From an uncultured Anaeroplasmatales bacterium (lineage in GTDB: Bacteria; Bacillota_I; Bacilli_A; Acholeplasmatales; JAEDCM01), in assembly GCA_964634685.1 (NCBI GenBank), contig CAZWLD010000009.1:292-64291 (forward strand): 64,000 nucleotides of DNA, in the 5' to 3' direction. Below are positions 38,329 through 58,360 of the stretch, in pieces. A program made the position numbers and the translations under genes. The notes under the pieces are model-generated. The model ran no database searches and was not told the origin of the DNA. It saw nothing but the letters and a program-made list of their open reading frames with translations. The stretch's first letter is position 1; every line of letters starts with the position of its first letter.

Positions 38329-39730
38329 TATAAACTATACTACACTTATATCCTAAGCCATCCTCACGATTAAAGGCTTCATCAAAGCTTGATGCCTCAA
38401 AATAAAGGGTAGTCTTTGATTGATTGGTTGAACAGCCATAGAAGGCTTTTTCACCAATTGTTGTGACAGTACTAGGAATATAGGCTTTTTCCAATAAAAT
38501 ACATAGCATAAAGGCCCCATTACCAATTTCTTCAACCGATGCTAAATCTACTTCCGTCAAAGAAGTCGTTAAAAAAGCTTTTTCTCCGATTTTTTTAACG
38601 GAATCAGGTATTTCAACCCGACTAAGTGAACGAGCCGCAAAGAAAGCATAATCGCTTATTTCAGTAATTCCCTCAGGAATTACATATTGATGTCCACTAC
38701 CAACATATTTTAACAAGGTATTATCTTTAATAATCACATCATCCTTGACATCTGATTTCTTAAATAGATAGCTTGTATATTTAGAAAACAAACTGTTTGT
38801 GGAATAATTATCATAATAATCATCCCCAACTAAAATCGCACCACACGAAAAGCCAGATAATTTTCCTTTCATTTTCGGCACATCGCCCAAAAACTCAACC
38901 CATTGAAGGAATGACATTGTTAAGCTGTATTGGCCAATTGTAGTAACAGACGCAGGAATCGTTAGATTCGATAAATTGGTATTATAAGCAAAATAGTCTC
39001 CGATTTCCTCTAAAGAATTAGATAATTGTAAATTCGTTAAATAAACACAATCCTTAAAGGCTGAATCGCCAATTGTAATAACGGAATTAGGTAAAACTAC
39101 ACTATAAACCTTTGAGCCGGCAAAAGCATAGGGTTCAATATTTAATAAAGTATTAGGAAGGCCAAATTCACCATCATATGAAGAAGGATATTGATAAAGA
39201 ACGGTTTGATTCTTATTATACAATAGGCCATCCATTTCTGAATAGTATTTGTTGTTTTTGTCAACAACAAAGGCTTTATTGAAGGTTAGATTTCTAAAGG
39301 CATCAGTACCAATACTTTCAACATTTTTTCCAATAATGACCTTTTCTAAAAGACTACATCCATAGAAGGCACGATCGCCAATTGTGACTACTCCACTATT
39401 TTTTACATAGGAAACCTCACGTAAAGCTCTTGATTCTTCAAAGGCTGATTCACCAATCGTCTTCACAGAGTCAGGAATAATAACCTTAACTAATTTGGAG
39501 TTTTGAAAGGCACTAGCGCCAATTTCTTCAACATAGTATCCATCAAGCTTTTCGGGAATACGAATATCATTAATATTTGTGTCCTTTAATCCTGTAACAA
39601 TGGCCACACCGTTTTTAATTGAATAATTAAAATATTCCTTGCTTGTTTCGGCCATTAGCTTTTCGCCACAAGCACATAAGGTAAGCGAAAAGAACAAAAG
39701 AAATAATAATATTTTTTTCAAATAAAACAC
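38297..39730 (-). CDS. BspA-type leucine-rich-repeat lipoprotein
   Basis: Signal peptide with a Cys lipobox (SLTLCAC), followed by many IP.SV..IG..AF repeats. Confidence 0.7.
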   Translation of the reverse strand: MFYLKKILLFLLFFSLTLCACGEKLMAETSKEYFNYSIKNGVAIVTGLKDTNINDIRIPEKLDGYYVEEIGASAFQNSKLVKVIIPDSVKTIGESAFEESRALREVSYVKNSGVVTIGDRAFYGCSLLEKVIIGKNVESIGTDAFRNLTFNKAFVVDKNNKYYSEMDGLLYNKNQTVLYQYPSSYDGEFGLPNTLLNIEPYAFAGSKVYSVVLPNSVITIGDSAFKDCVYLTNLQLSNSLEEIGDYFAYNTNLSNLTIPASVTTIGQYSLTMSFLQWVEFLGDVPKMKGKLSGFSCGAILVGDDYYDNYSTNSLFSKYTSYLFKKSDVKDDVIIKDNTLLKYVGSGHQYVIPEGITEISDYAFFAARSLSRVEIPDSVKKIGEKAFLTTSLTEVDLASVEEIGNGAFMLCILLEKAYIPSTVTTIGEKAFYGCSTNQSKTTLYFEASSFDEAFNREDGLGYKCSIVYNVSREDYRGK

Positions 39731-39754: not shown

Positions 39755-39784
39755 AAAAAAAAATACCTAGAAAAAATCTAGGTA
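39755..39784 (-). terminator. Rho-independent terminator (duplicate copy of the pyk terminator)
   Basis: Minus strand reads TACCTAGA TTTTT TCTAGGTA followed by T9. It is identical to the hairpin at 50587..50607. Confidence 0.8.
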
Positions 39785-39829
39785 TTGATTGGAAATATTA
39801 AAGAGTAACGACTTTCATTTCGTTTTCAG
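39756..39829. repeat. 74-bp perfect direct repeat, left copy (pyk 3' end fragment plus terminator)
   Basis: Identical base for base to 50579..50652. It contains the last 10 codons plus the stop of pyk (39798..39829), detached from any pyk body. Confidence 0.95.
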
Positions 39830-39852
39830 GATATAACAAATTTGTTTAACCC

Positions 39853-42800
39853 TTATTCAGACTTATTTTTATCATCTTTAAAAAATGCTTGGATCAATCC
39901 AATTATCATAATTACTACTGACAACGGTATGAACCAAATAATTGCAATTTTTTCTTCTATACCATCGACAACTTTATCAAAAATTTTATACTCTATATAC
40001 GCAAAAACAGGAGATAATAATAATAAAAGTACGTATATCCATTCTGCTAATTCACCATCTATATTACTATTTTGAACGAAAATTAATGCTCCTATTAAGA
40101 AAATTAAACTGTATAAATATAATATTGACCTAAGAAAAGCCGAGATTTTTACAAAGATTTCCATATAATCGTGATCATAATGCCCGTCTTTGATAAAAAC
40201 CACTATGTTCATCAAAACAATCAAAAGATAACTTGAAGCTAGAATAATTATGTCAGGTATACTAAATGATAAAACAAAGGAATCTGATGGTTTCCATGCT
40301 AAACATGTTTTAAAACATAAGTGTAATAATCCAGCTATTGGGAAAAATGAAAAAACAAACAATAATATGAAGAGAATTGAAGAAAAAATAGTTTTAATAA
40401 AATTCGAAATTGCATCATTTCTTTTTTCAACCCTAATTTTATTTTGAGTAATAATTTTTTCAGAATCAATCTCTACTCTAATCTTTTCCATTGATAGTAA
40501 ATAAGAGTTTTTATTCTTACCGCCATATATTTCAATTCTCTTTTTTAAACTCTCATATAATAAATTTAATTTGTTGATACCTTCTACATCATATGGTTTA
40601 TATCTGTAGCATTTTAAATCATATTCAAGACAATGAAACTTTTTATTACACTCTTTACAAAAGTTATCCCAAATCGCTTCATCGTCATTTTCTTTAAATA
40701 TTGAAAATAAAGAATTGGCTCTTTTCAATGATTGTAAACAATCATATTCTTCATCAATTTTTTTCTTATACCTATTATTCAATTCCTCTTTTATCTCCAC
40801 ATATGTTGAGGAAGCAATAATCTTTTCACATTCTTCAATTATGGTTTCGATTTCATCAATATTATCAACATTTCTTTCCGGTAATGACGCCAATAATTTT
40901 TGTACCTCAAAAATAGATGAAGTGTATTTCTTTTGAAAATCAACAATCTCGATTAAATCATCTATTAAGCCGCCTGCGAGGGTATTTCCTTGTCTTTGAA
41001 GTTTAACCAAACCACTCTTTATTGAGGAAATATTCATTGCCTTATCAGCTACTTTTACTTCATCCTTTGTTAAACATCTATTATCTGCTAATTCAATATA
41101 GTATTTTGCACAAATACAATCAAATGAATTTTCATTAGATTGCTGAACTATATATTGACTATACATTTTCTTAGCTGCCGAAAAGGCCTTAAACTTATGA
41201 AGATTGACCGCAAAGGTTGCTAATAAAGAATCAATTGTTGTTGGTGAATCCTTATACATATAAAAATCACTACAAGGATCTAGGCTAACAGTTTTTGGTG
41301 AATTAACCTTTAATGGCGTTTCATCTAATGAATAAACTATATATTTATTGAATAAATCAAATCCATTTAATTGTTCATCCTTATCGCCCTTTGAAGGCAC
41401 TAATAAGCCGTCTTCAGTTTTTTGATAAGCATCTTCATCTGTGATTATCGAAATTAAGAAGGTTTCAAGATACTTAGGTTTCGTAGCGGGTGGTGCATAT
41501 CTAAATAGATTAGTAAATTTTTCAATAATCTCCTTGTTATGAACAATATGAAGGTTTTCCTTATTTGAAACATCCTTTTTATCACTTAATGTATTTCCCA
41601 ACAAATTCTTCCGCAAAGCGATATACTCGTTTGGAGTATATATATTCTTTGTAACGTTAATGGAAATATAATACCATAAGGCTTCATAATCACCCTTATT
41701 TACATCGATTATTTCCTTAAGCTTTGCTTGAACAAATTCCCTTGATTTTGGCCTTAAATCTGCATTTAAAAACAAATCAAGAGCCTTTTTACGAGATTCA
41801 ATATATTTGTTAGGATCATTATTAGTAACATATTGTTTGATTAATAAATAATCACTAATTATGTCAATTATTGAATCCTTTTTTTCAACATTTTTAACTG
41901 TTTGATAGATATTAGATGCAATCTTATTAAGAATCCCTTTATCTATATATTCTATATAGGGAATAATACATATTTTCAAGACAGGCTTTTGAACTAAATG
42001 ATTATAATTGTCATTTGCCAATAGTTGAGCGATTTTTGTAATAACCTTTTTTGAATCCTCCTCAGTCGCTACTTTAAAGAATTCTTCCGCTACTTTTGGT
42101 TCTTTCGATATATTTTCTAAATTATTAAAATACGCATCAATTCCTAAAAATTCTGTATCTTTCAATAACAAATATTTTTTAGCTAAATAAGCATCCTGAT
42201 GCTCAGAAACGATTCTTTCAAGCTCAACAAAGGCATTTTTTCGATTTCTTTTGATTAATTCAAGATTATTTTCGCTTCCTTTAGGACTTCTTTCAATATC
42301 GTAAATCAAGTTATCAATCTCATCCTGAAGAGTTGAATCTGTTTTTTGATAGGTTGTAAATTTTCTGGTTGATTGAACCATACTTGTTATCTTTACATCA
42401 CTTATCTCAGCAACTTCGCTTTTGAATTCCTTTGATGTAATCTTCTTAATAGAATTATCAAAAACGTTATCCTTAATGAATTCTAGTAAATTAGTTTCAG
42501 CTCCCGGTTTTCCTAAATAGATATGTTGTAGATTTTTAAATTCGTATGGGACATCATTAGGATTCATAGTCTTTGTAACAAATACAAATGATCTCTTTTG
42601 ATTTTTATTACGATTTTGAATCTCAGGATCCATTAAATATAGATAACGCATCCATTCATTTCTTACCCACTGCCATTGAATGTTAGTCTCATTTTCGCCA
42701 ACTAAGATAAATACCTTAGCGGATTGTAATGCCGAAAAGATGATATGTTCATATTTCTTTCCCGTGAATAATCCCTGACAACGCTCAGATAAAAACACCT

Positions 42801-43428
42801 TTACTCCGGGAATTTGATCTTTAATAAAATCATACAATCCAGATGCCAACTCATAATCTTGTGTCCTAACAATTGAGCCATCTTCATTTTTGATTGGCTC
42901 GTTTGTCCTTGGGTCGATTTTAGAGACCTTTGTGGAGATAAAAATATCAAATTTATACTCACCATTCTTATAAACTTCTTCGATTTCTTTTCGAACCTTT
43001 TCAATATATTCAAATGTCTCTAAAAAGGATTCTTTTTGATAAGGCTTTGATAACTCCAAACTTTTTTTAACAAATTCACTTTCCAAAATGTTTTCAAAAT
43101 TAATATTATTTAAAGTGGGAATATTGTCATATTTCCAATTCAATTTATTATCATTTGGAGTATAACAAATACAGTTTCTTGCCAAAGCACTTAAAAACCA
43201 TACTTCTGCATCCTTCGGATTTGATTCCCTTAATTCACGTAAGTCTGATTCTGCTTCCTTGAAGCGCAAATCTTTAAGATAACGATAAATCTTTTTATAT
43301 TCATCCATCTTTTCAGCATCCATATTATGAACACCACCACAAGCCGGGCACTTATATAATTCATCAATTTTTTTCCATGTTGATGCATCAAATTCCCTCC
43401 AGCAACGTGGGCATTTTTTCTCTCCCAT
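39853..43428 (-). CDS. Zinc-ribbon / TPR-like / TIR domain protein with long helical region and C-terminal polytopic membrane domain (TIR-B)
   Basis: 1191 aa. aa5-32 form a ribbon (CPRCW..CPACGG). A TPR-like segment follows. The TIR fold spans aa157-320 (42469..42960; YKFDIFISTK ... QWQWVRNEWMRYL; Glu258 codon at 42655..42657). The last about 200 aa (39874..40476) contain about six hydrophobic helices. Confidence 0.75.
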   Translation of the reverse strand: MGEKKCPRCWREFDASTWKKIDELYKCPACGGVHNMDAEKMDEYKKIYRYLKDLRFKEAESDLRELRESNPKDAEVWFLSALARNCICYTPNDNKLNWKYDNIPTLNNINFENILESEFVKKSLELSKPYQKESFLETFEYIEKVRKEIEEVYKNGEYKFDIFISTKVSKIDPRTNEPIKNEDGSIVRTQDYELASGLYDFIKDQIPGVKVFLSERCQGLFTGKKYEHIIFSALQSAKVFILVGENETNIQWQWVRNEWMRYLYLMDPEIQNRNKNQKRSFVFVTKTMNPNDVPYEFKNLQHIYLGKPGAETNLLEFIKDNVFDNSIKKITSKEFKSEVAEISDVKITSMVQSTRKFTTYQKTDSTLQDEIDNLIYDIERSPKGSENNLELIKRNRKNAFVELERIVSEHQDAYLAKKYLLLKDTEFLGIDAYFNNLENISKEPKVAEEFFKVATEEDSKKVITKIAQLLANDNYNHLVQKPVLKICIIPYIEYIDKGILNKIASNIYQTVKNVEKKDSIIDIISDYLLIKQYVTNNDPNKYIESRKKALDLFLNADLRPKSREFVQAKLKEIIDVNKGDYEALWYYISINVTKNIYTPNEYIALRKNLLGNTLSDKKDVSNKENLHIVHNKEIIEKFTNLFRYAPPATKPKYLETFLISIITDEDAYQKTEDGLLVPSKGDKDEQLNGFDLFNKYIVYSLDETPLKVNSPKTVSLDPCSDFYMYKDSPTTIDSLLATFAVNLHKFKAFSAAKKMYSQYIVQQSNENSFDCICAKYYIELADNRCLTKDEVKVADKAMNISSIKSGLVKLQRQGNTLAGGLIDDLIEIVDFQKKYTSSIFEVQKLLASLPERNVDNIDEIETIIEECEKIIASSTYVEIKEELNNRYKKKIDEEYDCLQSLKRANSLFSIFKENDDEAIWDNFCKECNKKFHCLEYDLKCYRYKPYDVEGINKLNLLYESLKKRIEIYGGKNKNSYLLSMEKIRVEIDSEKIITQNKIRVEKRNDAISNFIKTIFSSILFILLFVFSFFPIAGLLHLCFKTCLAWKPSDSFVLSFSIPDIIILASSYLLIVLMNIVVFIKDGHYDHDYMEIFVKISAFLRSILYLYSLIFLIGALIFVQNSNIDGELAEWIYVLLLLLSPVFAYIEYKIFDKVVDGIEEKIAIIWFIPLSVVIMIIGLIQAFFKDDKNKSE

Positions 43429-43523
43429 ACCTTACAACTCCTTGCAAATAAAATGATTTAGAATTTTATTCATTAGATTCTAATTTCAATATCATTATTT
43501 TAATTAACATACAATATGAATAA

Positions 43524-45719
43524 CTAAAACATTATTTCTTCTCCTGTATTTGTAATATACCCCTTTAACTGTCCATTGGTATACAAAACAACTTCCTTTA
43601 CATTTGTATAATATCCAACTATTTCATCGTAGTTATACAAACCTCCATACCAATATGATCCTAACGATATTTTACCCATATCAAATGATTGAAATAAAAC
43701 TATTGCTTTTCCATCATCTTCAAATGCTTCCTTTCCAATTTTAGTCAAAGTTGCTGGAAGATGAACATATTTTAATGATGTATCAAGTGCAAATGCAAAG
43801 TCTCCAACTATTTCTACCTTTGATGACTCGTTATAGTCAACATATTTTAACTTCTCGCATTTGTAAAATGCATAATCACCAATATATCTTAATTGTTTTC
43901 CTAAAGTGACATCAGTTATTTCAGCAAAAGCAAATGCTTGATTACATACATACATAATATCTCTTCCATCAACTTCACTTAATTCAATACTCAATAAAGA
44001 AGATCCATTCATATACTTCATAATACCAACATAATCATCATCAGTAATAAAATATCTATAATTGCCATTTTCCTTTACTTCCTTTACATTTGTATAATAT
44101 CCAACTATTTCATCGTAGTTATACAAACCTCCATACCAATATGATCCTAAAGATATTTTACTTGTATCATATGATTGAAATAAAACTATTGCTTTTCCAT
44201 CATCTTCAAATGCTTCCTCTCCAATTTTAGTCAATGTTGCTGGTAAATGCACATATTTTAATGATGTATCACGTGCAAAGGCAAAGTCTCCAACTATTTC
44301 TACCTTTGATGACTCGCTATAGTCAACATAATTTAAATTCTTACATGAATAAAATGCATAATCACCTATATACATTAGTTCTTTACCTAAAATAACATCT
44401 GTTATATTTGAATTTTTGAATGCTTGACTACATACATACCTTACTTCTATTCCTTCAACAGTATTTAAATCAATACTCAATAATGAAGATTCATTCATAT
44501 ACTTCATAATACCAACATAATTGTCATTAGTAATAAAATATCTATAATTGTCATTTTCCTTTACTTCCTTTACATTTGTATAATATCCAACTATTTCATC
44601 GTAGTTATACAAACCTCCATACCAATATGATCCTAATGATATTTTATATGTATCATATGATTGAAATAAAACTATTGCCTTTCCATCATCTTCAAATGCT
44701 TCCTCTCCAATTTTAGTCAATGTTTCTGGAAAATGAACATATTCTAATGATGTATCAAGTGCAAATGCATAATCTCCAACAGTTTCTAGACAAGTATTTC
44801 CTAAATCCAAAGAGGTTAAGGATGATTTATAAAATGCATATGAACCAATACTAGATAAAACAGTATATCTATCTAACACCAATTTATTTATTTTTGAACC
44901 ATAAAATGCTCTTTTGCCAATCGATCTTATTGTTGCAGGTAATTTAACACTAGTGATTGCTCGGGATTCAAAAGCTTGATTTGCTATCTCATCTACCATT
45001 TTATCATTATGATATGTTGGAATAACAATGTCCGGATAAAAGCCTTCATATCCAACTACTTTATAAGTATTTGTATCTTCTTTAAATTCATATATTATTC
45101 CTTCTGTTCCTTCATCTATATAGGAGAATATTGCAGTAAAATTAGTATCTTTTTTACATAGAACATCAGTTGTGTAAATCTCACCATAGTCATCTGCCCA
45201 TCCAACAAGTATATAACCACTTTCATCATTAACTATTGGGAAATCTATTACTTGTCCATAATCATAATAATTTGTAGTAATTAGCGTCCCATCATAGTTA
45301 TAAAAATTAATTGGTATGTCCACTGGTGGAGCAAAATTAAAAGTTAGGGGACCTGTAGATCCAACTTCTTCTTTACCTAAAACTTCATTGAAGTTTTTAT
45401 ATGATATATCTACAACAAATTTGCCCGGATTAGGAGAAGATATACCAATTTCATACTCTCTATCTGATACTTTAACCCACTCTATTTTTGCGCCACAATT
45501 ATTTTCAATAATGTCAAAAGAAAAATCTTTAGTATTTGTAGTAGTATGATTTTCTTTTCCATTTATTAATAACTTAGTATATAAAAAATACACCTCATCT
45601 ATTTCGTATGAATCTTGCAAATTAGTAATACATAATTCATAATCATTTCCAAAAAGAAATCCGCATGATGCTAAAGTCAACATAGTAAAAACACAAAGCA
45701 AAAAAAATATTTTTTTCAT
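43524..45719 (-). CDS. BspA-type LRR lipoprotein with 162-aa tandem repeats
   Basis: Start moved to ATG 45719 (MKKIFFLLCVFTMLTLASC, lipobox LASC). There are LRR units and 2.5 near-identical 162-aa repeats (..DTSLKYVHLPATLTKIGEEAFEDDGKAIVLFQSYDT..YYTNVKEV..). Confidence 0.7.
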   Translation of the reverse strand: MKKIFFLLCVFTMLTLASCGFLFGNDYELCITNLQDSYEIDEVYFLYTKLLINGKENHTTTNTKDFSFDIIENNCGAKIEWVKVSDREYEIGISSPNPGKFVVDISYKNFNEVLGKEEVGSTGPLTFNFAPPVDIPINFYNYDGTLITTNYYDYGQVIDFPIVNDESGYILVGWADDYGEIYTTDVLCKKDTNFTAIFSYIDEGTEGIIYEFKEDTNTYKVVGYEGFYPDIVIPTYHNDKMVDEIANQAFESRAITSVKLPATIRSIGKRAFYGSKINKLVLDRYTVLSSIGSYAFYKSSLTSLDLGNTCLETVGDYAFALDTSLEYVHFPETLTKIGEEAFEDDGKAIVLFQSYDTYKISLGSYWYGGLYNYDEIVGYYTNVKEVKENDNYRYFITNDNYVGIMKYMNESSLLSIDLNTVEGIEVRYVCSQAFKNSNITDVILGKELMYIGDYAFYSCKNLNYVDYSESSKVEIVGDFAFARDTSLKYVHLPATLTKIGEEAFEDDGKAIVLFQSYDTSKISLGSYWYGGLYNYDEIVGYYTNVKEVKENGNYRYFITDDDYVGIMKYMNGSSLLSIELSEVDGRDIMYVCNQAFAFAEITDVTLGKQLRYIGDYAFYKCEKLKYVDYNESSKVEIVGDFAFALDTSLKYVHLPATLTKIGKEAFEDDGKAIVLFQSFDMGKISLGSYWYGGLYNYDEIVGYYTNVKEVVLYTNGQLKGYITNTGEEIMF
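43575..44800 (-). repeat. Tandem 486-bp in-frame repeats (about 2.5 copies)
   Basis: The marker string CCTTTACATTTGTATAATATCCAAC recurs at 43595, 44081 and 44567, a period of exactly 486 bp. The flanking sequence is nearly identical between copies. Confidence 0.9.
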
Positions 45720-45723
45720 AATC

Positions 45724-46315
45724 TTACAACTCCTCATTTTTCTTTTTTCTTTGAAAAAATGACTTAATGTCTTTAATTTCTAAATCTATTTTTCCATCAT
45801 CTTTTTTTATTCTTTGAACGATTAAAAATACTGTGGCAGAAATCACCAATATAGTTGAAATAACCTGAGAGGGTGATAAAAACGGCAATATTTTTCCACG
45901 ATTATCACCTCGCATAAGCTCAGCAAAGCAGCGATAAATGCCATAAACATAACTATAGACAATCCATCTTCTCTCCTTGATAAACAAAACTAATATCCAA
46001 AAAAAGATGAACATAATCCAGCCTCAATTAATTGAGACGGAATAAGCTTTGTTCAAAATCCATAAGTCATTGTTGAAATTGATTCTTCTGGATAAACCAA
46101 ACCAAAAACGGAATTGATTGGTTTTCCAAAACAACAACCCTCATAAAAACAACCAAAGCGGCCAAAGGACTAACCAATAACAAATAAAGGGATATTATTA
46201 TTTGATGTTTTTTCATAAAGCAATAAAAATATATTATACCAACAGTTATTCCTAATATGATTGTTAAGGGATATATAGCAATTTCAATATTTCCAATATT
46301 ATATTTTGGATACAT
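45724..46315 (-). pseudogene. lgt: Disrupted prolipoprotein diacylglyceryl transferase gene
   Basis: The N-terminal fragment (46067..46315) ends at a TGA. The motif IPSQLIEAGL (the Lgt HPSQLYE region) lies in a second frame at about 46015..46045. The C-terminal fragment (45724..46014, ..VYGIYRCFAELMRGDN..LSPSQVIS..) lies in a third frame. The total span of about 197 codons compares with about 270 aa for intact Lgt. Confidence 0.6.
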
Positions 46316-46362
46316 AACAAATCCATCCTTTAATAATAAATATGCATAAATAAAATCAACTA

Positions 46363-48462
46363 CTAATTTTGATAAAACCTTTTTGCATTTACTAATAATT
46401 CATTACCGCTATCAATTCTCATATTATTCCATTGTTCAGCGCTTCCTAGATAATATATTTTATTAAGATTATTACACTCAGTAAATGCTTTTTCTTCTAT
46501 TTCAATAATATTAGATGACATCGTAACAGTAGATAACTTGTCACAATTATAAAATGCATATTTTCCTATAGATGATACTTTAGAGGGAATAGTTATACTA
46601 TCCAATTGACTACAATTACAAAATGCATAATCTCCAATGCGAGCTAAATTATTTGATAGTATAACCTTTCTTAATTTGTCACAATCCTTAAATGCATCTG
46701 TATTTAACTCTTTAGCATCAGCAGGAATAATTATTGATTCAATGCCATGATACGTTGTGCTCCAAGCACCATTTTCATCAATTTCTCCGATTCCTATCGC
46801 GGTTTCCCTAATATGATAAGAGGCAAATCTATCTTCCCAATTCGCTTCGGCATATTTGCCATTAATCAAAGAATTTACCCTTGGAAATAAAGTTCGATAA
46901 AATGATCCATCAGAATAATATGCACTATAATACAACTGAAAATCACAATTAAAATTCATTAAATAATTTAATTTTATACCAGCAGAATTGACTACATAAT
47001 ATCCTAAAAATTCGGTATCATTCGATAATTTAATATCTTTAACCATTTTATTTTCTTCTTCAGAATTATCACTTTTTGTTTTTTCAAAATATATACTTGA
47101 TACTGTATATTCCTCATCATCTTTAGCAAATGTTATTTCAATATAGCTATACGATACTTTTGCCAATTCTTCCATAAGTTTCTCTTCTTCACCTGCTAGT
47201 TTAAGATAAGCATCATCATTTCCATTAACTAAAGCCTTTTCTTGATCTAAATTATTCTTCTTAATCTTTTTCAAGATTGATGAATACGAATTGCTATAAT
47301 ATTTCCACACTGTTTCTGAAGAAAAATCCTCATATGGTGATCCTAATATTTTCTTTACTTCAGAAGATGTATATCCAGGCTCAATTTTTTCCACAACGGA
47401 AATCTTAAATTTATTATTAAAATAAGAAATGGCAAAGCATCCAGCTGTTATAATAAAGATAGCTAAAATCGTAATCAACATACAAAAAGTTTTATGTAAA
47501 GCTATCCAAATCACAAAAGAAGGAGTCTTTTTTTCTGTAGCCTTATCATACTGACGTTTTTCATATTTATATATTATGAGCTGCTTTTTATTATCTTTTT
47601 CACTTTTTACACTTGTAGGCATAATTGGTTCTTGATGTGTTTCATAAAATTTATCTCTTCGGGCTTTCTCATTTTCTCTATATAGAATAATTTTATTAGC
47701 CTCATTTTTAACTAATTCCGGATATTTTTTCGCTAAGAAATGTCTAACAATGAAACTTGAAATTGATAATAAAGCAAACAATAAAGAGAAGACTATCAAT
47801 AAAATCGGACAACTACCTGCTTTAAATATGCCCATTCCTTCATCTATAGATGATATTTCACAAATAATTATTATTCCAAAAGCTAAGAAAATGGCATAAA
47901 AAATAAATGACATATATTCTAGAAAAATAAATATAGGCTGAACATTTTTACCAAATCTTATTTCTTTATTTCTAATCTTAGTGGAAAACACCGTTATACT
48001 AGAAATCAGAGCGAAAATAATTGTTACAATTGCTACTATAACTAGTGTTATCATAGCCCATTCAATTTCAGGAATTTCGCTTAACAACCCTGAATACATT
48101 TGATAGACATTACCAAGACTAATATTAGGCAAACCTTCACCCATTATTACCTCTGCTACAGGGGCTGCATAAAATGCAAATATTAATAAGCTAAAAATGC
48201 CAGATAAAATAACAGGTACATATCGTAAAATTGAATATATTAATCCAATATTAAGATTTGATGTTTTATTCTCAAGATTATTTTTACTTTTCTGTGGCTT
48301 AACCTGATTATCACCTAAAAAACAACCACATTCATTACAATACTTAACCAAATCATTTAACTTTGTTCCACAATTAGGACATATTTTTTCTTCCCATTTA
48401 GTTCCGCATTCAGGGCAAAATTTTCCTTCAAACTCTTTACCACAATTAAAACATTTTTTCAT
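46363..48462 (-). CDS. Double-zinc-ribbon / polytopic membrane / LRR protein
   Basis: The likely start is ATG 48462 (MKKCFNCGKEFEGKFCPECG..CPNCG..CNECG) after GGGAGAG. It has about 7 TM helices, an extracytoplasmic region with an SmpA/OmlA-like GYTSSEVKKILGSPYED motif, and C-terminal BspA-type LRRs. Confidence 0.65.
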   Translation of the reverse strand: MKKCFNCGKEFEGKFCPECGTKWEEKICPNCGTKLNDLVKYCNECGCFLGDNQVKPQKSKNNLENKTSNLNIGLIYSILRYVPVILSGIFSLLIFAFYAAPVAEVIMGEGLPNISLGNVYQMYSGLLSEIPEIEWAMITLVIVAIVTIIFALISSITVFSTKIRNKEIRFGKNVQPIFIFLEYMSFIFYAIFLAFGIIIICEISSIDEGMGIFKAGSCPILLIVFSLLFALLSISSFIVRHFLAKKYPELVKNEANKIILYRENEKARRDKFYETHQEPIMPTSVKSEKDNKKQLIIYKYEKRQYDKATEKKTPSFVIWIALHKTFCMLITILAIFIITAGCFAISYFNNKFKISVVEKIEPGYTSSEVKKILGSPYEDFSSETVWKYYSNSYSSILKKIKKNNLDQEKALVNGNDDAYLKLAGEEEKLMEELAKVSYSYIEITFAKDDEEYTVSSIYFEKTKSDNSEEENKMVKDIKLSNDTEFLGYYVVNSAGIKLNYLMNFNCDFQLYYSAYYSDGSFYRTLFPRVNSLINGKYAEANWEDRFASYHIRETAIGIGEIDENGAWSTTYHGIESIIIPADAKELNTDAFKDCDKLRKVILSNNLARIGDYAFCNCSQLDSITIPSKVSSIGKYAFYNCDKLSTVTMSSNIIEIEEKAFTECNNLNKIYYLGSAEQWNNMRIDSGNELLVNAKRFYQN

Positions 48463-48568
48463 ACTATCTCTCCCAATATTCAACAAAATAATTCATATAA
48501 AAACAGCACATCTTTAAAGTACTATTCTAAAATTATGCAAAATCAAAAACAATATTTATTTTCTTTGA

Positions 48569-48970
48569 TTAACCAACATATTCCGTTTTACGGTGAGCAT
48601 ATAAAACTTCAATATCCTTGATTTTACCCAAAATAATCTCAACAGTTGTCTTTTCTTGTTTGGATAATAGCATTTTTAATTCGGCTATTGCCCCCGCTAT
48701 CTTTTGATCTACCTTCAAAACACCACTTTTTGGCGATACACTTACAAAATCTGCGGTATGCTTCAATTGCTTTAATTTTTCCTTAATTGCTTCGTCCGAC
48801 TCTTCAGCTAAAGCAATTAACATACCAATTTCATTAGCATTCTTTTTAATTACATCATCGTCATCATTATTTATTTCTACTGTTGTTTTGTCATCCTTAA
48901 AATTTTTAGAGATAATAATCAAAACCACTACTAAAACAATAACAACGGGAATTAACCAATAATACCACAT
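48569..48970 (-). CDS. Single-pass membrane protein with helical cytoplasmic domain
   Basis: 133 aa: an N-terminal TM helix (WYYWLIPVVIVLVVVLIII), then a charged helical tail resembling the tail of ORF 5755..6474. It lies 12 nt downstream of the SPFH gene. Confidence 0.55.
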   Translation of the reverse strand: MWYYWLIPVVIVLVVVLIIISKNFKDDKTTVEINNDDDDVIKKNANEIGMLIALAEESDEAIKEKLKQLKHTADFVSVSPKSGVLKVDQKIAGAIAELKMLLSKQEKTTVEIILGKIKDIEVLYAHRKTEYVG

Positions 48971-48982
48971 ATAATCAACCTC

Positions 48983-50086
48983 CTAGAGCTTCTTGCCACA
49001 TTCAGGACAGAATTTAGCATCAAATTCTAATTCCTTTCCACATGAACAACGAATTTTATTACCAGGTAATCTTTCCCCACAGCCTACGCAAAATTTTGAA
49101 CCAATTTCGTATGATCTTCCGCAATGAGGACAAAATCTTCCTTCTTTAGCCGGCACAGTATTTTGATTTTTTTCAGAAATAATCTTTAATACTTCATAAT
49201 ATTTCTCTTTATCAGCTAATTCTAATTGCTTTAATAAAAGCTCTCTTTGCCATTTTCTCTCATCCTCATCTTGTTCACGAGCATAGGCCTTATCTGATAA
49301 TCTTTCAAGCTCATTCGCAATTTCTTGGGCTTCCTTTTTTTCCTTGATTTCAATTCGTCTTCTAAATAACTCATCCTCAATCGCTTCAGCTTCATCCTCT
49401 TGAATTCCTAAGCGTTCAACTGTAAATGAACATAATTTTAGACCAACATCATTAATCATTAGCTCATTCAAATACGGAAGAATACTATCGCCAATTGGTT
49501 TCATATACATTTGGATATCCAAATATGAATAAACCTTTTCACGAATTACTCTTTGTAATGCATCCGCAAAATAAGACATCAACCTTACGTCGATTCTTTC
49601 CTTCAATGAATCAATAGAATAGATTTTATCTGAACCAATGATTTCAAGATAAAACTGCTTTGGATTATCAACCTTGACCTCAAACTCTCCTCCGCCTCGA
49701 ACATGAACAACATTTTCTGTTAAAGGATCACGATAAATAACAGGGTTTTTTGTGCCCCATTCAACTTTGAATTTGACGGTCTTATTAACAAAAATTATGT
49801 CAACGTCAACTGCATCAAGCTTTGGTCTACGGAATAATCCTCCTTTTTCAACAGTCTCGAAAATTCTATATCTTCCACCATCAAGGATATCCTGCAATTT
49901 ACCATCCTTGATATATATACAAGAATGAGTTGGTGGAACAACAATCGTACATTCAGGATTTAAAATATTTCCTGAAGTCCTCCAAAAAAAGAGATCATTA
50001 TCTCCTTCAAAATGAATAATTGAAGTATTTTCATCTAAAACTGATGCATCTCCTATATCCATATTAGTTACTATTTTCTTTGCCAT
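48983..50086 (-). CDS. SPFH/band-7 domain protein with C-terminal zinc ribbons (SPFH-B, YdjI/COG4260-like)
   Basis: 367 aa: SPFH core, coiled coil, and C-terminal CPHCG..CVGCG and CSCG..CPECG ribbons. AGGAGG RBS lies 7 nt upstream. Confidence 0.75.
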   Translation of the reverse strand: MAKKIVTNMDIGDASVLDENTSIIHFEGDNDLFFWRTSGNILNPECTIVVPPTHSCIYIKDGKLQDILDGGRYRIFETVEKGGLFRRPKLDAVDVDIIFVNKTVKFKVEWGTKNPVIYRDPLTENVVHVRGGGEFEVKVDNPKQFYLEIIGSDKIYSIDSLKERIDVRLMSYFADALQRVIREKVYSYLDIQMYMKPIGDSILPYLNELMINDVGLKLCSFTVERLGIQEDEAEAIEDELFRRRIEIKEKKEAQEIANELERLSDKAYAREQDEDERKWQRELLLKQLELADKEKYYEVLKIISEKNQNTVPAKEGRFCPHCGRSYEIGSKFCVGCGERLPGNKIRCSCGKELEFDAKFCPECGKKL

Positions 50087-50110
50087 AATATTCCTCCTCT
50101 TTCCAACTTT

Positions 50111-50139
50111 AGTATACTTCTTTTGTCATTTTTTGTCAA
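50111..50139 (-). promoter_or_regulatory. Near-consensus promoter of the SPFH-B gene
   Basis: Minus strand reads TTGACA (50134..50139), a 17-nt spacer, then TATACT (50111..50116), followed by the AGGAGG RBS. Confidence 0.65.
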
Positions 50140-50207
50140 TTATTACTTATCATTGCTGATAATTATAATTCTTCATTAATATAGTAAAATAACAATAGGT
50201 GAAAAAT

Positions 50208-50504
50208 ATGGTTATTGAAATTAGTGAAAGAATAAAGGAATTAAGAGAAGCGAAAAGCATGTCTCAAACAGCATTAGCTAAGGAATTGAATATATCTCGA
50301 ACTGCAGTTAATGCCTGGGAAATGGGAATTTCACTGCCATCAATGGAAAAATTAATTGAATTATCGAAAATATTTAATGTGAGTGCTGATTATTTATTAG
50401 GCATTGAAAATAAAGTTACAATAAAGCTAGATAGCCTTTCAGATGAACAAATAAATGTTATATTAGATTTAGTAAACATATTATCAAAATCAAATAATCA
50501 ATAA
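50208..50504 (+). CDS. XRE-family HTH transcriptional regulator
   Basis: The typical Cro/C1 HTH is SQTALAKELNISRTAVNAWEMG. ATG 50208 is preferred over track GTG 50199 because AGGTGA lies 6 nt upstream. The gene is divergent from SPFH-B. Confidence 0.8.
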   Translation: MVIEISERIKELREAKSMSQTALAKELNISRTAVNAWEMGISLPSMEKLIELSKIFNVSADYLLGIENKVTIKLDSLSDEQINVILDLVNILSKSNNQ

Positions 50505-50531
50505 AATTATCTATTATATTTCCTAAAAAAA

Positions 50532-50558
50532 AGAAACACTCGAAATGTTTCTTTTTTT
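50532..50558 (+). terminator. Rho-independent terminator after the XRE gene
   Basis: AGAAACA CTCGAAA TGTTTCT followed by T7. Confidence 0.7.
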
Positions 50559-50578
50559 CTTTAATAATATTTATTAAT

Positions 50579-50607
50579 AAAAAAAATACCTAGAAAAAAT
50601 CTAGGTA
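50579..50607 (-). terminator. Rho-independent terminator of pyk
   Basis: Minus strand reads TACCTAGA TTTTT TCTAGGTA followed by T8, starting 13 nt after the pyk stop. Confidence 0.85.
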
Positions 50608-50652
50608 TTGATTGGAAATATTAAAGAGTAACGACTTTCATTTCGTTTTCAG
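50579..50652. repeat. 74-bp perfect direct repeat, right copy (authentic pyk 3' end plus terminator)
   Basis: Identical to 39756..39829. Sequences immediately outside both copies are unrelated. Confidence 0.95.
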
Positions 50653-52003
50653 TAACAACTAAAACGAAATCTCCTTCAGATACTTCAATATTTGCTTTTA
50701 CATAATCGATTGCAGCATTTAAATCAAAATCAAATGCATATACACCGAAGTTTAATGCAAGTCCACGAGCCTCACGACGGTTAGGAACGCAAGCTACGAT
50801 TGGGCAGCAAGGACGGAATCTTGAACATGCAGATGCTAATTTAGCTTCACCAACAGTGATGATAGCAGATGCTCCAAATTCTAATGCTGATTTAGCAGCA
50901 CTCATACCTAACATAGTAGGGAAATCTAATTCATAAACACCATCTAAAGCACGATCGAACATTAAATCAAAATCAATTTCATCGCCCATACGGTCATCAA
51001 TCTTAGCCATATAGCGAACTGATTGAATTGGATAATCTCCACCAGCAGATTCTCCTGATAACATTGTTGAATCAGCTCCATCTAATACAGCATTAGCAAC
51101 GTCGTTAACCTCGGCACGAGTAGGACGTGGATTTGATTGCATAGATTCAAGCATTTGTGTTGCAACAACAACGATCTTTCCTTGAGATTGACATTTAGAA
51201 ACTAATTCCTTTTGAACAACTGGTACTTCCCAAGCAGGAATTTCAACACCCATATCTCCACGAGCAACCATAATACCATCAGCGATTTCAATGATTTCAT
51301 CAAGATTATCAACACCCTCTTGGTTTTCGATTTTAGCGATAATCTTAATATGATCATTTCCTTTAGCAGCTAAGATATCACGAATCTCTTGAACATCGCT
51401 AGCACGACGAACAAATGAAGCACTGATGAAATCTAAGTCTTGATCACAAGCAAATTCCATATCAGCCTTATCCTTAGCTGAAATAAATGGCATATTTAAT
51501 TTAACGTTTGGAACATTGATTCCACGTTTATCTTTAATTTTATGAGTATTTTCAGCAACACAAACTAATTCACGATTAGCTTCATCCTTTTCAACGATAG
51601 TTAATTCAAGATATCCATCATCTACTAAGATTGTTCCGCCTACTTCAACATCATCATATAATCCTGGGTATGTTACAGAGAATTTTTCTGCAGTTCCTAA
51701 AACTTCCTTCATTGCAATACGAACAGTTGAACCCTTCTCGACAGTAACCTTCTTTTCTCCCTCTTTGTATTGGAATAAATGAGTACGAATTTCAGGTCCC
51801 TTAGTGTCTAAGCATAATGCTACGTTAGTTCCTAATTCTTCATTTAATTCACGGCAGTTTTTGATACGGAATCCGTGTTCCTCATAATCTCCATGAGAGA
51901 AGTTCATACGTACAACGTTCATACCAGTTTTGATAAGCTCACGCATAACGTCTTTTTGTTCAGATGCTGGTCCGATTGTACAAATCATCTTTGTCTTTTT
52001 CAT
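50621..52003 (-). CDS. pyk: Pyruvate kinase
   Basis: MKKTKMICTIGPASE N-terminus and the motifs NFSHG, MVARGDMGVEIP and TQMLESM. At 460 aa it has no PEP-utiliser extension. Confidence 0.95.
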   Translation of the reverse strand: MKKTKMICTIGPASEQKDVMRELIKTGMNVVRMNFSHGDYEEHGFRIKNCRELNEELGTNVALCLDTKGPEIRTHLFQYKEGEKKVTVEKGSTVRIAMKEVLGTAEKFSVTYPGLYDDVEVGGTILVDDGYLELTIVEKDEANRELVCVAENTHKIKDKRGINVPNVKLNMPFISAKDKADMEFACDQDLDFISASFVRRASDVQEIRDILAAKGNDHIKIIAKIENQEGVDNLDEIIEIADGIMVARGDMGVEIPAWEVPVVQKELVSKCQSQGKIVVVATQMLESMQSNPRPTRAEVNDVANAVLDGADSTMLSGESAGGDYPIQSVRYMAKIDDRMGDEIDFDLMFDRALDGVYELDFPTMLGMSAAKSALEFGASAIITVGEAKLASACSRFRPCCPIVACVPNRREARGLALNFGVYAFDFDLNAAIDYVKANIEVSEGDFVLVVTENEMKVVTL

Positions 52004-58184: not shown

Positions 58185-58228
58185 ATATACACCTCACCCT
58201 TAAAATAATTTTTCAACTAACAAAAATA

Positions 58229-58257
58229 ATTATATTTGATGTATCTAATAATGTCAA
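58229..58257 (-). promoter_or_regulatory. Consensus promoter of the fused ABC gene
   Basis: Minus strand reads TTGACA (58252..58257), a 17-nt spacer, then TATAAT (58229..58234). Confidence 0.7.
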
Positions 58258-58360
58258 GAATACTATTTATGACCAGTAATGAATCATATAGAATTATTTA
58301 TTATTATATTCGTAAGAAATAGTAGATGAGGAGTCTACAGTATGCCTTAAAAATGAAATA

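What the first reader, a model, noticed from the sequence alone, without database searches (positions are those of the whole stretch)
39756..50652. 10.8-kb accessory island precisely bounded by perfect 74-bp direct repeats derived from the pyk 3' end and terminator
Seen in sequence: 39756..39829 and 50579..50652 are identical over 74 bp (A8 + TACCTAGAAAAAATCTAGGTA hairpin + spacer + the last 10 codons and stop of pyk). Sequences just outside the repeats are unrelated. The right copy is the authentic pyk end. The left copy is an orphan pyk tail that now terminates the TIR-B gene and abuts an LRR lipoprotein gene. This is the classic attL/attR signature of site-specific integration into the 3' end of a housekeeping gene. 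Everything between the repeats is accessory: TIR-B, a repeat-rich LRR lipoprotein, an lgt pseudogene, a zinc-ribbon/TM/LRR protein, a small membrane protein, SPFH-B and XRE. No integrase, transposase or phage structural gene is visible, so the element is decayed, mobilised in trans, or moved by homologous recombination.
Basis: partly seen in the sequence, partly recalled or inferred. Interest (0 to 1): 0.8.

Follow-up and report, generated by a model that had tools for sequence, protein, structure and literature searches.

The report
Integrase-less island in pyk terminator
A 10.7-kb block of accessory genes sits between two identical 74-bp copies of the pyruvate kinase gene's tail and terminator in some strains of an uncultured gut Mollicutes relative and is cleanly absent from others, which makes it a real but fairly ordinary kind of decayed mobile island, carrying an uncharacterised membrane SPFH/TIR/LRR gene set.

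Summary
Bases 39756-39829 and 50579-50652 are identical over 74 bp, similarity stops sharply at both ends, and this is the only long dispersed perfect repeat in the window. The repeat (R) is the last ~10 codons and stop of pyk, a spacer, and a 10-bp-stem terminator with its T-run.

The predicted empty site exists. Six metagenome contigs from conspecific strains (~99% identical) read pyk, one R, then the 477-aa LRR lipoprotein gene, base-perfect to both outer flanks. Island-bearing contigs come from two further samples, and a variant from a third.

I found no recombinase gene or remnant in the island or among the ORFs I scanned elsewhere in the window. The island holds one XRE regulator and one operon: SPFH/zinc-ribbon, a small membrane protein, a zinc-ribbon/TM/LRR protein, an lgt remnant, an LRR lipoprotein and a 1191-aa zinc-ribbon/TPR/TIR/TM protein. 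The distal R copy supplies the operon's terminator.

Best reading: a CIME-like element inserted by a single crossover inside R. Whether a site-specific recombinase or RecA made that crossover is unresolved.

The XRE/SPFH/TM/TIR module recurs widely in metagenomes and matches no PADLOC model. Interest is moderate: a new member of a known kind.

The parts
39756..39829 (-). Distal copy of the 74-bp repeat R (attL/attR-like). It is an orphan pyk tail plus terminator. It now follows the TIR-B gene and precedes the LRR477 gene.
   Evidence: 74/74 identical to 50579-50652; terminator-like hairpin at 39786-39762; the downstream flank is identical to the flank that follows the single R in empty-site strains.
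50579..50652 (-). Proximal copy of R: the authentic 3' end of pyk (last ~10 codons and stop), a spacer and the intrinsic terminator.
   Evidence: the upstream flank is identical to pyk in empty-site strains.
39830..50578 (.). Unique island DNA (10,749 bp), absent from empty-site strains.
   Evidence: alignments of L001, L002, L003, L005 and L006 to the window stop exactly at 39829 and 50579, sharing the 74 bp. One search adds L105, which has the same empty-site gene order.
39853..43428 (-). TIR-B, 1191 aa: N-terminal zinc ribbon, TPR-like helices, a TIR-fold domain (about residues 160-320, with invariant DxFIS..K and W..WVxNEW motifs), a long helical region and a C-terminal multi-TM region. 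It is the last gene of the operon.
   Evidence: homologues carry PF13676; AlphaFold2 pLDDT 78.7; top PDB fold hits are TIR domains, TM-score normalised to the target, TMt, up to 0.75. There is no direct Pfam TIR hit.
43524..45737 (-). BspA-type LRR lipoprotein, 737 aa (lipobox LASC), with three 486-bp internal repeats.
45724..46014 (-). lgt remnant: only the C-terminal ~65 residues of prolipoprotein diacylglyceryl transferase.
   Evidence: PF01790 positions 171-239 of 240, below cut-off; TIGR00544 positions 196-272 of 280, far below cut-off.
46067..46315 (-). 82-aa small hydrophobic protein with no family assignment.
46363..48486 (-). Double zinc ribbon / multi-TM / C-terminal BspA-type LRR protein (707 aa from the TTG start; 699 aa as called in Logan). 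It is absent from the island variant L179.
48569..48970 (-). 133-aa protein with an N-terminal TM segment and a coiled coil. It is a conserved partner of the SPFH gene.
   Evidence: (42% identical to the gene after SPFH in L091).
48983..50086 (-). SPFH-B, 367 aa: Band_7_1 SPFH domain plus C-terminal double zinc ribbons. It is the first gene of the operon.
   Evidence: and (64% identical to the L091 SPFH).
50111..50139 (-). Promoter-like site TTGACA-17-TATACT (11 of 12 matches) upstream of SPFH-B, in the divergent XRE/SPFH intergenic region.
   Evidence: This is a consensus match only.
50208..50504 (+). XRE-family HTH regulator (98 aa from the ATG at 50208), transcribed divergently from the operon.
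50525..50558 (.). XRE terminator hairpin (A-run, GAAACA...TGTTTC, T-run). An unrelated mobile element is inserted at 50545/50546 in variant L179.
50621..52003 (-). pyk (460 aa), the target gene, left intact by the insertion.
38297..39730 (-). LRR477, a chromosomal BspA-type LRR lipoprotein gene. It directly follows pyk and R in empty-site strains. It is outside the island.

Best explanation
The region is a 10.75-kb strain-variable genomic island with no recombination or transfer genes of its own. In the vocabulary of Firmicutes integrative elements it is a CIME-like element.

How it got there: a circular DNA carrying one copy of R recombined once with the chromosomal R at the 3' end of pyk (Campbell-type). 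This gave pyk-R-island-R-LRR477. Because R runs from inside the pyk coding sequence to the end of the terminator T-run, the insertion is functionally scarless. pyk keeps its last codons and its terminator. The island operon gains a terminator. LRR477 keeps its upstream context.

Who made the crossover: I think most likely a site-specific recombinase of an ICE, IME or prophage ancestor, since lost by deletion or supplied in trans. This is by analogy with Firmicutes elements that target the 3' ends of fda, rpsI and rpmG. The two perfect 74-bp repeats can now also mediate RecA-dependent loss.

Cargo: an XRE regulator and a divergent seven-gene operon (SPFH/zinc-ribbon, small TM protein, zinc-ribbon/TM/LRR, 82-aa protein, lgt remnant, LRR lipoprotein, zinc-ribbon/TPR/TIR/TM). 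This is a divergent version of a widespread XRE/SPFH/TM/TIR module. It probably forms a membrane-associated complex acting in conflict or defence, or in envelope surveillance.

Shown: the repeats, the empty site, the absence of recombinase genes in the ORFs scanned, the operon layout, the TIR fold, and the recurrence of the module.
Inferred: the single-crossover origin, recombinase involvement, the direction (gain), and the cargo function.
For: Repeat and boundaries.

Empty site: it is base-perfect in L001, L002, L003, L005 and L006, and L105 has the same empty-site gene order. These come from at least 5 samples, 0.7-1.0% diverged from the window.

Island-bearing contigs: SRR6824180 and SRR6824197 are 100% identical to the window, with all four arms entering R. 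The identical TIR-B protein is on record on an NCBI contig of 64,592 bp, which is probably the window's source. A 99.5% variant occurs in a third sample set.

Direction: the empty-site strains are as far from each other as from the window, so a single gain is the most parsimonious.

No recombinase: the Pfam scans found none. No intergenic gap in the island exceeds 112 bp.

Terminator function of R.

Known precedent: CIMEs are 1.2-13 kb, att-flanked, integrase-less and very common. ICESt3-type integrases target the 3' ends of fda, rpsI and rpmG (PMC5704250; PMC7563491).

Independent parallel: in L164 an XRE/SPFH/SIR2/TIR island with no integrase is flanked by 107-nt repeats. These repeats end in the 3'-terminal 12 nt of the adjacent tRNA-Arg, and a 170-nt microCIME-like unit sits in tandem.

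Cargo module: SPFH co-occurs with the TIR protein in 30 of 67 metagenome loci and a tetraspanin-like TM protein in 25 of 67. The closest relative operon is in L091.
Against: No recombinase that recognises R was found anywhere.

No other element occupies the pyk 3' end in about 12 conspecific contigs. None of 68 related species carries a second copy of the pyk end within 10 kb downstream.

The R 30-mer is absent from IMG/VR and from the JGI metagenomes.

The island ends show no arm-type repeats or inverted repeats beyond chance.

There are no remnants of ICE, IME or phage genes. The lgt fragment is not a mobility gene.

GC content (0.289 versus 0.318) and tetranucleotide distance (0.16, within the window's range of 0.09-0.18) do not mark the island as foreign.

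74 bp of perfect identity is also enough for RecA-dependent recombination.

The only recombinase found beside a near-identical copy of the module (L179) belongs to an unrelated promiscuous element.
Confidence: 0.55

Rival explanations
1. No dedicated recombinase was ever involved. The island moves by general (RecA) homologous recombination. One route is Campbell-type integration of a circle carrying R, formed by R-R excision or illegitimate circularisation in a donor strain. The other is allelic replacement through the flanking pyk and LRR477 homology after DNA uptake. R is simply the homologous segment that the circle carried.
For: The repeats are perfect and 74 bp long, which is long enough for RecA-dependent exchange (established knowledge). 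No recombinase, att-arm architecture or second element at this site was found. Composition resembles the host. Flanks are ~99% identical between strains, which would permit allelic exchange.
Against: It does not explain how the first R-island-R arrangement arose. One junction falls inside a pyk codon and the other exactly at the end of the terminator T-run. That pattern is typical of elements carrying a replacement 3' end for their target gene.

Another strain indel in the same window (58196-58369) has no flanking repeats, so repeats are not a general by-product of indels here.

SNP density shows no imported tract next to the island.

The L164 parallel abuts a tRNA 3' end, the classic integrase target.
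Confidence: 0.25
2. The island is ancestral to the sampled population, and the empty sites are repeated deletions between the two R copies. The polymorphism would then reflect loss, not recent gain. This concerns direction only and still needs an older integration event.
For: Deletion between 74-bp perfect direct repeats is easy and would leave exactly one R, as observed. The island has diversified: variant L179 lacks the 2.2-kb ZnLRR gene and has an 89.6%-identical p82 region. That suggests some age in the population.
Against: At least four distinct empty-site lineages (0.8-1.1% apart from each other) would each need an independent loss, against one gain. Both R copies are still 100% identical. 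No relative has anything similar downstream of pyk.
Confidence: 0.2
3. The integrated arrangement is an assembly artefact. The island would be an extrachromosomal circle, or lie elsewhere, with one R copy, and the assembler threaded it into the chromosome through the shared 74 bp.
For: The window probably comes from a metagenome-assembled contig, because the identical TIR-B protein is on record on an NCBI contig of 64,592 bp. In k=31 unitigs all four arms break inside R, so those graphs cannot distinguish integrated from circle-plus-empty.
Against: A 74-bp repeat is shorter than ordinary reads and than the largest k of common metagenome assemblers, so it is normally spanned directly (inference). 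The island has no replication or partition gene. GC skew and gene orientation run continuously with the flanks.
Confidence: 0.05
4. A transposon or casposon-like element that produced a very long target-site duplication.
For: Direct repeats of target sequence flank the insert.
Against: There is no transposase and there are no terminal inverted repeats. 74 bp is far longer than any target duplication I know of for these elements (own knowledge).
Confidence: 0.02

Closest known systems
CIMEs (cis-mobilizable elements) of streptococci and other Firmicutes: decayed ICE/IME derivatives that keep attL and attR but have lost integration and transfer genes (PMC5704250; PMC7563491)
   Same: Direct repeats identical to the empty-site sequence flank the island. 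It has no integrase, relaxase or conjugation genes. Its size (10.7 kb) lies in the reported 1.2-13 kb range. It carries cargo genes only. It sits at the 3' end of a housekeeping protein gene, as ICESt3-type elements do at fda, rpsI and rpmG.
   Different: No related ICE or IME targeting pyk is known or was found, so derivation from one and mobilisation in cis are not shown. The element stands alone, not in tandem. The repeat is longer than the few tens of bp I recall for ICESt3-type att sites (own knowledge) and includes a whole terminator. The host is an uncultured Anaeroplasmataceae-like lineage.
ccr-less pseudo-SCC elements at the 3' end of rlmH (orfX) in staphylococci (own knowledge, not checked here)
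   Same: Cargo islands bounded by direct repeats at the 3' end of a housekeeping gene. They lack their own recombinase and depend on one supplied in trans.
   Different: The SCC repeats are about 15-18 bp and the Ccr serine recombinases are known. Here the repeat is 74 bp and no recombinase is known.
tRNA/tmRNA-associated genomic islands with a duplicated 3' gene segment
   Same: The identity block runs from inside the target gene to its 3' end, so the gene is restored after insertion. The parallel locus L164 actually sits at a tRNA-Arg.
   Different: The target here is a protein-coding gene plus its terminator. There is no adjacent integrase.
IMEX elements (Xer-dependent integrative elements flanked by dif-like sites; own knowledge)
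   Same: They are integrase-less and flanked by direct repeats.
   Different: R derives from the pyk tail and terminator, not from a dif site. The window shows no GC-skew switch, so it is not at the terminus. The hairpin arms are spaced 5 nt apart, not the 6-nt dif centre.
Cargo: the B. subtilis YdjI/SamI SPFH protein with the zinc-ribbon membrane partner YdjG (PMC8581546; 10.1101/2021.02.15.431232), and bacterial TIR/SIR2 NADase defence proteins
   Same: An SPFH domain (Pfam Band_7_1 here; YdjI is described as a Band 7/flotillin-family protein) is combined with zinc ribbons and small membrane proteins. The TIR fold has a conserved acidic motif. A SIR2 gene sits in the L164 version.
   Different: There is no PspA partner. 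SPFH and the zinc ribbons are fused. No PADLOC model matches. No ThsA-like or other known effector is present. BspA-type LRR membrane proteins are part of the operon.

Membership tests
CIME / decayed integrative element | Flanked by direct repeats (attL, attR), each identical to the single site (attB) in strains lacking the element | tested here: met
   74/74 identical repeats; a single copy in six empty-site contigs, with identical outer flanks at base level in five.
CIME / decayed integrative element | No functional integrase, excisionase, relaxase, coupling protein or conjugation genes | tested here: met
   Pfam, NCBIfam and PADLOC scans of every island ORF of 80 aa or more found none. The largest intergenic gap is 112 bp.
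CIME / decayed integrative element | Derived from an ICE or IME by deletion (remnants or close relatives that still carry the modules) | tested here: not met
   There are no remnants in the island. The nearest relatives of the cargo (L091, L179) give no cognate integrase. The resolvase beside L179 belongs to an unrelated promiscuous element.
CIME / decayed integrative element | att sites are substrates of an integrase supplied by another element (accretion and cis-mobilisation) | not testable with these tools
   This needs the rest of the genome or pangenome, or an experiment. No element with R was found in IMG/VR or JGI contigs.
Genomic island (classical criteria) | Presence/absence polymorphism between close strains | tested here: met
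Genomic island (classical criteria) | Base composition or oligonucleotide usage different from the core genome | tested here: not met
   GC 0.289 versus 0.318. Tetranucleotide distance is 0.16, inside the range of other 10.7-kb windows (0.09-0.18).
Genomic island (classical criteria) | Insertion at a tRNA gene or at the 3' end of a conserved gene, with a duplicated target segment | tested here: met
   the 3' end of pyk plus its terminator.
Prophage or phage satellite | Capsid, terminase, tail, replication or packaging-hijack genes | tested here: not met
   The TIR-B family is not found in IMG/VR.
DDE or serine transposon | Transposase plus terminal inverted repeats and a short target duplication | tested here: not met
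IMEX (Xer-dependent element) | Integration at the chromosomal dif site in the replication terminus | tested here: not met
   cumulative GC skew is monotonic across the window. R is the pyk tail and terminator.
TIR-domain protein (cargo gene 39853-43428) | TIR fold | tested here: met
   AlphaFold2 model with pLDDT 78.7. The top Foldseek PDB hits are TIR domains: TIR-1/SARM1, IL-1RAcPb and MyD88, with TM-score normalised to the target (TMt) 0.60-0.75, although E-values are only 3e-3 to 0.1. Homologues at 27-33% identity carry PF13676. The in-window paralogue TIR-A hits TIR_2 at 3e-10. The protein itself has no Pfam TIR hit.
Known anti-phage defence systems (Thoeris and others in PADLOC-DB v2) | Match to the system's protein models and gene composition | tested here: not met
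   no PADLOC hit for TIR-A, TIR-B or the LRR proteins. SPFH-A/B and p133 gave only marginal, non-diagnostic hits (best E about 1e-3, to HEC-08, LmuB, SspE and ZorB). Only the XRE matches generic regulator models.

The most novel reading that the evidence does not exclude
The island's cargo, and the widespread XRE/SPFH/TM/TIR module it belongs to, is an undescribed membrane-anchored conflict (anti-phage or anti-MGE) system. An SPFH scaffold and membrane partners would sense envelope perturbation and switch on a TIR (in some versions also SIR2) NAD-consuming effector. In the B-type version these partners include proteins with surface-exposed BspA-type LRR domains, giving a split arrangement loosely like an LRR receptor plus a TIR protein. 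The system would travel between strains on small integrase-less cassettes bounded by long repeats of a gene's 3' end (pyk here, tRNA-Arg in L164).
Probability: 0.25. Interest if true: 0.65.

Novelty: new member of a known kind. Interest (0 to 1): 0.4.

Why it matters
This is a clean, base-resolved example of an integrase-less island at a protein-coding target, with its empty site. The target, the pyk terminator, is one I have not seen described. The host is an uncultured gut Anaeroplasmataceae-like lineage where mobile elements are hardly charted. Single CIME-type elements are thought to be common but are missed by signature-gene searches (PMC7563491), so examples defined by an empty site are useful.

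The larger potential value lies in the cargo. The zinc-ribbon/TPR/TIR N-terminal module has 2,646 cluster representatives at E <= 1e-10. It is regularly linked to an SPFH/zinc-ribbon protein and a four-TM protein. It matches no PADLOC model. I found no description of it in the searchable literature. Its strain-variable, cassette-like occurrence makes it a reasonable candidate for testing as a defence or envelope-surveillance system.

Tried and rejected
1. Extended, degenerate homology beyond R. The MAFFT alignment suggested TTGTTA[TATC]CTGAAAAC, but local alignment scores match shuffles. Rejected.
2. Compositional foreignness. Not an outlier.
3. Exact R 30-mer in IMG/VR and in the JGI metagenomes. 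No hits.
4. The pyk 3' end as a recurrent hotspot. Of 68 related-species loci with at least 2 kb downstream, none has a second copy of the pyk end. None has SPFH or TIR genes near pyk.
5. A recombination tract next to the island. SNP density is uniform.
6. Arm-type or terminal inverted repeats at the island ends. None beyond chance.
7. The resolvase lead. A 99.5% variant of the module (L179) abuts a 206-aa serine recombinase, and the L091 and L181 modules also have one nearby. I followed this.
   - The L179 recombinase is 100% identical on 56 or more contigs in unrelated contexts.
   - It marks the end of an IME-like element: DUF6809, resolvase, RrnaAD-family methyltransferase, S24 repressor, MobC/relaxase and a large serine recombinase.
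   - That element's end coincides with the L179 junction. It is therefore a neighbouring insertion, not the island's recombinase.
8. Xer/dif (IMEX) idea. There is no skew switch, and the hairpin spacing does not fit a dif centre. The dif comparison was from memory only.
9. Other searches on the cargo. PADLOC gave no system. A PDB sequence search with the TIR-B family profile hit only the zinc ribbon. A viral-contig search with the TIR-B family found none.
10. Other indels in the species as a control. The 58196-58369 replacement has no flanking repeats.
11. SPAdes contigs L106 and L108 also end inside R, but at inconsistent depths and low coverage, so they are uninformative.

Full report
**Observation**

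The two stretches 39756-39829 and 50579-50652 are identical over 74 bp and lie 10,823 bp apart. In a scan of the whole window this is the only long, perfect, dispersed direct repeat. The 21-nt palindromic core TACCTAGAAAAAATCTAGGTA occurs exactly twice even with three mismatches allowed, against zero expected. Local alignments of the 30-100 nt adjoining each end score no better than shuffled sequence, so the boundaries are sharp.

Read on the - strand, which is the sense strand of pyk, the repeat (R) has four parts. First come the last 29 coding bases and the TAA of pyk. Then follow a 13-nt spacer, a hairpin with a 10-bp stem and 5-nt loop, and a run of T. Both copies are called as intrinsic-terminator-like sites, and they are the only - strand ones between 38 and 52.5 kb that sit at a gene end. 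The RNA folds at -17.6 kcal/mol, z = -4.3.

**Gene map**

The genes are as follows.

| Coordinates | Strand | Gene |
|---|---|---|
| 52974-55973 | - | dnaE |
| 52024-52974 | - | pfkA |
| 50621-52003 | - | pyk |
| 50579-50652 | - | R, proximal copy |
| 50208-50504 | + | XRE regulator |
| 48983-50086 | - | SPFH (Band_7_1) with double zinc ribbon |
| 48569-48970 | - | 133-aa TM/coiled-coil protein |
| 46363-48486 | - | double zinc ribbon / multi-TM / BspA-type LRR protein |
| 46067-46315 | - | 82-aa hydrophobic protein |
| 45724-46014 | - | C-terminal remnant of lgt |
| 43524-45737 | - | 737-aa LRR lipoprotein with three 486-bp repeats |
| 39853-43428 | - | 1191-aa TIR-B protein |
| 39756-39829 | - | R, distal copy |
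| 38297-39730 | - | LRR477, a 477-aa LRR lipoprotein |

After LRR477 come a 196-aa protein, a Mur ligase and uvrB.

The island is therefore one regulator plus one operon. A strong promoter-like site (TTGACA-17-TATACT, 50139-50111) lies ahead of SPFH. The distal R supplies the operon's terminator.

**Empty site**

A look-up of the exact pyk and pfkA proteins returned contigs from other samples. In L001, L002, L003, L005, L006 and L105, pyk is followed after 67 nt by the 477-aa LRR gene. For the first five, base-level comparison shows pyk, one copy of R, and then the flank that follows the distal copy in the window. Their BLAST alignments to the window stop exactly at 39829 and 50579 and share the 74 bp. 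L105 shows the same empty-site gene order.

These strains are 0.7-1.0% diverged from the window and, apart from one near-identical pair, 0.8-1.1% from each other.

**Where the island occurs**

Contigs 100% identical to the window come from Logan samples SRR6824180 and SRR6824197. Each of the four arms runs 30 nt into R and stops, as expected for k=31 unitigs at a two-copy repeat. The identical 1191-aa protein is on record on an NCBI contig of 64,592 bp, which is probably the window's source.

A third sample set holds a variant, L179. It is 99.5% identical over SPFH to XRE, lacks the 2.2-kb ZnLRR gene, and has an 89.6%-identical p82 region. The island family therefore has some diversity in nature.

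**Organism**

The best pyk match among GTDB species representatives is only 74% identical at the protein level, to an Anaeroplasmataceae MAG. The next matches are Anaeroplasmataceae, Acholeplasma and Haloplasma. The species itself is not represented. Synteny of pyk, the Mur ligase and uvrB is kept in the closest relative.

**Mechanism**

The simplest route from the empty to the filled state is one reciprocal crossover between the chromosomal R and an R carried on a circular DNA. What made the crossover is not shown.

In favour of a site-specific recombinase:
- The identity block starts inside a pyk codon and ends exactly at the end of the terminator. That is the pattern of elements that carry a replacement 3' end for their target.
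- Tyrosine-integrase ICEs and IMEs of Firmicutes target the 3' ends of fda, rpsI and rpmG.
- Their integrase-less derivatives (CIMEs, 1.2-13 kb) are described as very common (PMC5704250; PMC7563491).
- A second, unrelated locus (L164) carries an XRE/SPFH/SIR2/TIR island without an integrase. It lies between 107-nt repeats that end in the 3'-terminal 12 nt of the adjacent tRNA-Arg. A 170-nt gene-less unit in tandem looks like a microCIME.

Against, or at least not in favour:
- No recombinase gene or remnant is in the island or in the other window ORFs I scanned.
- No other element sits at this site in about a dozen conspecific contigs.
- None of 68 related species has a second copy of the pyk end downstream.
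- The R 30-mer is absent from IMG/VR and JGI contigs.
- There are no arm-type or inverted repeats at the island ends.
- Composition is not an outlier.
- 74 perfect bases would also serve RecA.

I put the recombinase-made, now decayed or trans-dependent element at about 0.55. A purely RecA-driven history gets about 0.25, an assembly or episome artefact about 0.05, and a transposon with a giant target duplication about 0.02.

Gain in the window's lineage is favoured by the star-like relationship of the strains. Repeated loss through R-R deletion cannot be excluded.

**A lead that dissolved**

In L179 the module diverges from the window at 50545/50546, inside the XRE terminator and 33 nt before R. 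It runs into an 82-aa gene, a DUF6809 gene and a 206-aa resolvase-type recombinase. That is where a lost integrase would be expected. A 51%-identical resolvase also lies beside the closest relative operon in L091, and another beside an A-type module in IMG/VR contig L181.

However, the L179 protein is 100% identical on 56 or more contigs, next to unrelated genes such as rplS, Hachiman plus a restriction-modification system, and parB. There it forms the left end of an IME-like element. That element carries an RrnaAD-family methyltransferase, an S24 repressor, MobC and a relaxase, and a 554-aa large serine recombinase. The shared sequence starts exactly at the L179 junction.

This is therefore a promiscuous element that landed beside the island, not the island's own recombinase. 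Why small serine recombinases turn up three times next to these modules remains unexplained.

**Cargo**

TIR-B has no direct Pfam TIR hit, but several lines support a TIR domain:
- Homologues at 27-33% identity carry PF13676.
- The in-window paralogue TIR-A (2533-4884) hits TIR_2 at 3e-10.
- The family has invariant DxFIS..K and W..WVxNEW motifs.
- An AlphaFold2 model of residues 1-400 (pLDDT 78.7) finds TIR domains as its best PDB matches. The TM-score normalised to the target (TMt) reaches 0.75, although E-values are weak.

The closest relative operon is in L091. Its SPFH is 64% identical, the small protein after it 42%, and the TIR protein 40%. It also contains an AAA ATPase and a giant zinc-ribbon/LRR_5 protein.

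A metagenome scan with the family profile gave 67 loci. SPFH/zinc-ribbon genes are present in 30 of them, a tetraspanin-like four-TM protein in 25, LRR proteins in 5-13, and a divergent XRE in 4. Many of the loci are short contigs.

The window itself holds a second, A-type copy: TIR-A, a DUF2971 protein, the four-TM protein and SPFH-A at 2533-8208.

The zinc-ribbon/TPR/TIR N-terminal module has 2,646 50%-cluster representatives at E <= 1e-10, but only 20 at E <= 1e-30. The TIR-B clade is therefore small.

No PADLOC model matches any component except the generic XRE; the SPFH proteins and p133 gave only marginal, non-diagnostic hits. I found no paper describing an SPFH/TIR module in the searchable library.

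The nearest characterised SPFH relative is B. subtilis YdjI/SamI. With the zinc-ribbon membrane protein YdjG it tethers PspA to the membrane (PMC8581546; 10.1101/2021.02.15.431232).

My inference is a membrane-associated sensing and scaffold complex coupled to a TIR effector, probably acting in conflict or defence. This is not shown.

**Comparison and verdict**

The structure works like a CIME or a ccr-less pseudo-SCC element. It meets their structural criteria: att-like repeats equal to the empty site, no recombination or transfer genes, and cargo only. Derivation from an ICE or IME was tested and not met. Mobilisation in trans could not be tested. It is not a prophage, a transposon or an IMEX.

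I rate it a new member of a known kind, with interest 0.4. The boundary phenomenon is ordinary but unusually well documented, with the pyk terminator as target. The cargo is the more promising part.

Noticed in passing
window 2533-12025: A second, A-type copy of the module. It comprises TIR-A (2533-4884, Pfam TIR_2 at 3e-10), a DUF2971 protein (4900-5742), a tetraspanin-like four-TM protein (5755-6474) and SPFH-A with zinc ribbons (6478-8208). These are followed by a KAP-NTPase-like ATPase (8602-9612) and two BspA-type LRR genes (9746-10849 and 10916-12025). The same SPFH/four-TM/TIR order recurs in many metagenome loci.
   Followed up: partly
L164 1-6500 (metagenome contig JAEEGL016577273.1): An independent parallel. 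tRNA-Arg (54-129) and a 170-nt gene-less unit are followed by a 6.1-kb integrase-less island carrying XRE, SPFH/DZR, a 296-aa protein, SIR2_2 and TIR_2/SH3. It lies between 107-nt repeats (99% identical) that end in the same 12 nt as the tRNA 3' end. It looks like a microCIME plus a CIME at a tRNA gene.
   Followed up: partly
L179 (ENA ERZ28633829 scaffold_14842), equivalent to window 46194-50545: An island variant, 99.5% identical over SPFH to XRE, that lacks the 2.2-kb ZnLRR gene. A widespread IME-like element is inserted at window position 50545/50546, inside the XRE terminator. That element carries DUF6809, a resolvase, an RrnaAD-family methyltransferase, MobC/relaxase and a large serine recombinase.
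   Followed up: yes
L091 4518-5132; L181 7941-8615: Small resolvase-type serine recombinase genes lie next to SPFH/TIR modules in two further unrelated loci. The L091 gene is 51% identical to the L179 one. I could not tell whether this is chance, neighbouring mobile elements or a functional link.
   Followed up: partly
window 58196-58369: A second strain difference. The strain of L001/L101 has about 2.8 kb here (PadR, DUF6120, a 172-aa and a 258-aa gene) in place of 173 bp in the window. The change starts right after a terminator hairpin and has no flanking direct repeats.
   Followed up: partly
window 43447-44862: Three 486-bp tandem repeats (76-93% identical) inside the island's 737-aa LRR lipoprotein gene encode repeated LRR blocks. 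This is a likely site of copy-number variation and the cause of contig breaks in short-read assemblies.
   Followed up: no
window 6482-6733: Three 84-nt tandem repeats (71-87% identical) at the 3' end of SPFH-A encode repeated zinc-ribbon units.
   Followed up: no
window 36344-37741 and 45724-46014: A complete Mur-ligase gene with all three Mur ligase domains is present. So are lipoprotein genes with lipoboxes and an lgt remnant. The closest pyk relatives of this genome are Anaeroplasmataceae and Acholeplasma MAGs, which are nominally wall-less Mollicutes. This hints that the lineage keeps peptidoglycan-related genes.
   Followed up: no
protein family of window 42229-43428 (TIR-B residues 1-400): The zinc-ribbon/TPR/TIR N-terminal module is a large family with very variable C-terminal regions (about 350-1900 aa). 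It has 4,134 50%-identity cluster representatives at E <= 1e-3 and 2,646 at E <= 1e-10. Several loci carry two or three paralogues in tandem, for example L129, L136 and L142.
   Followed up: partly
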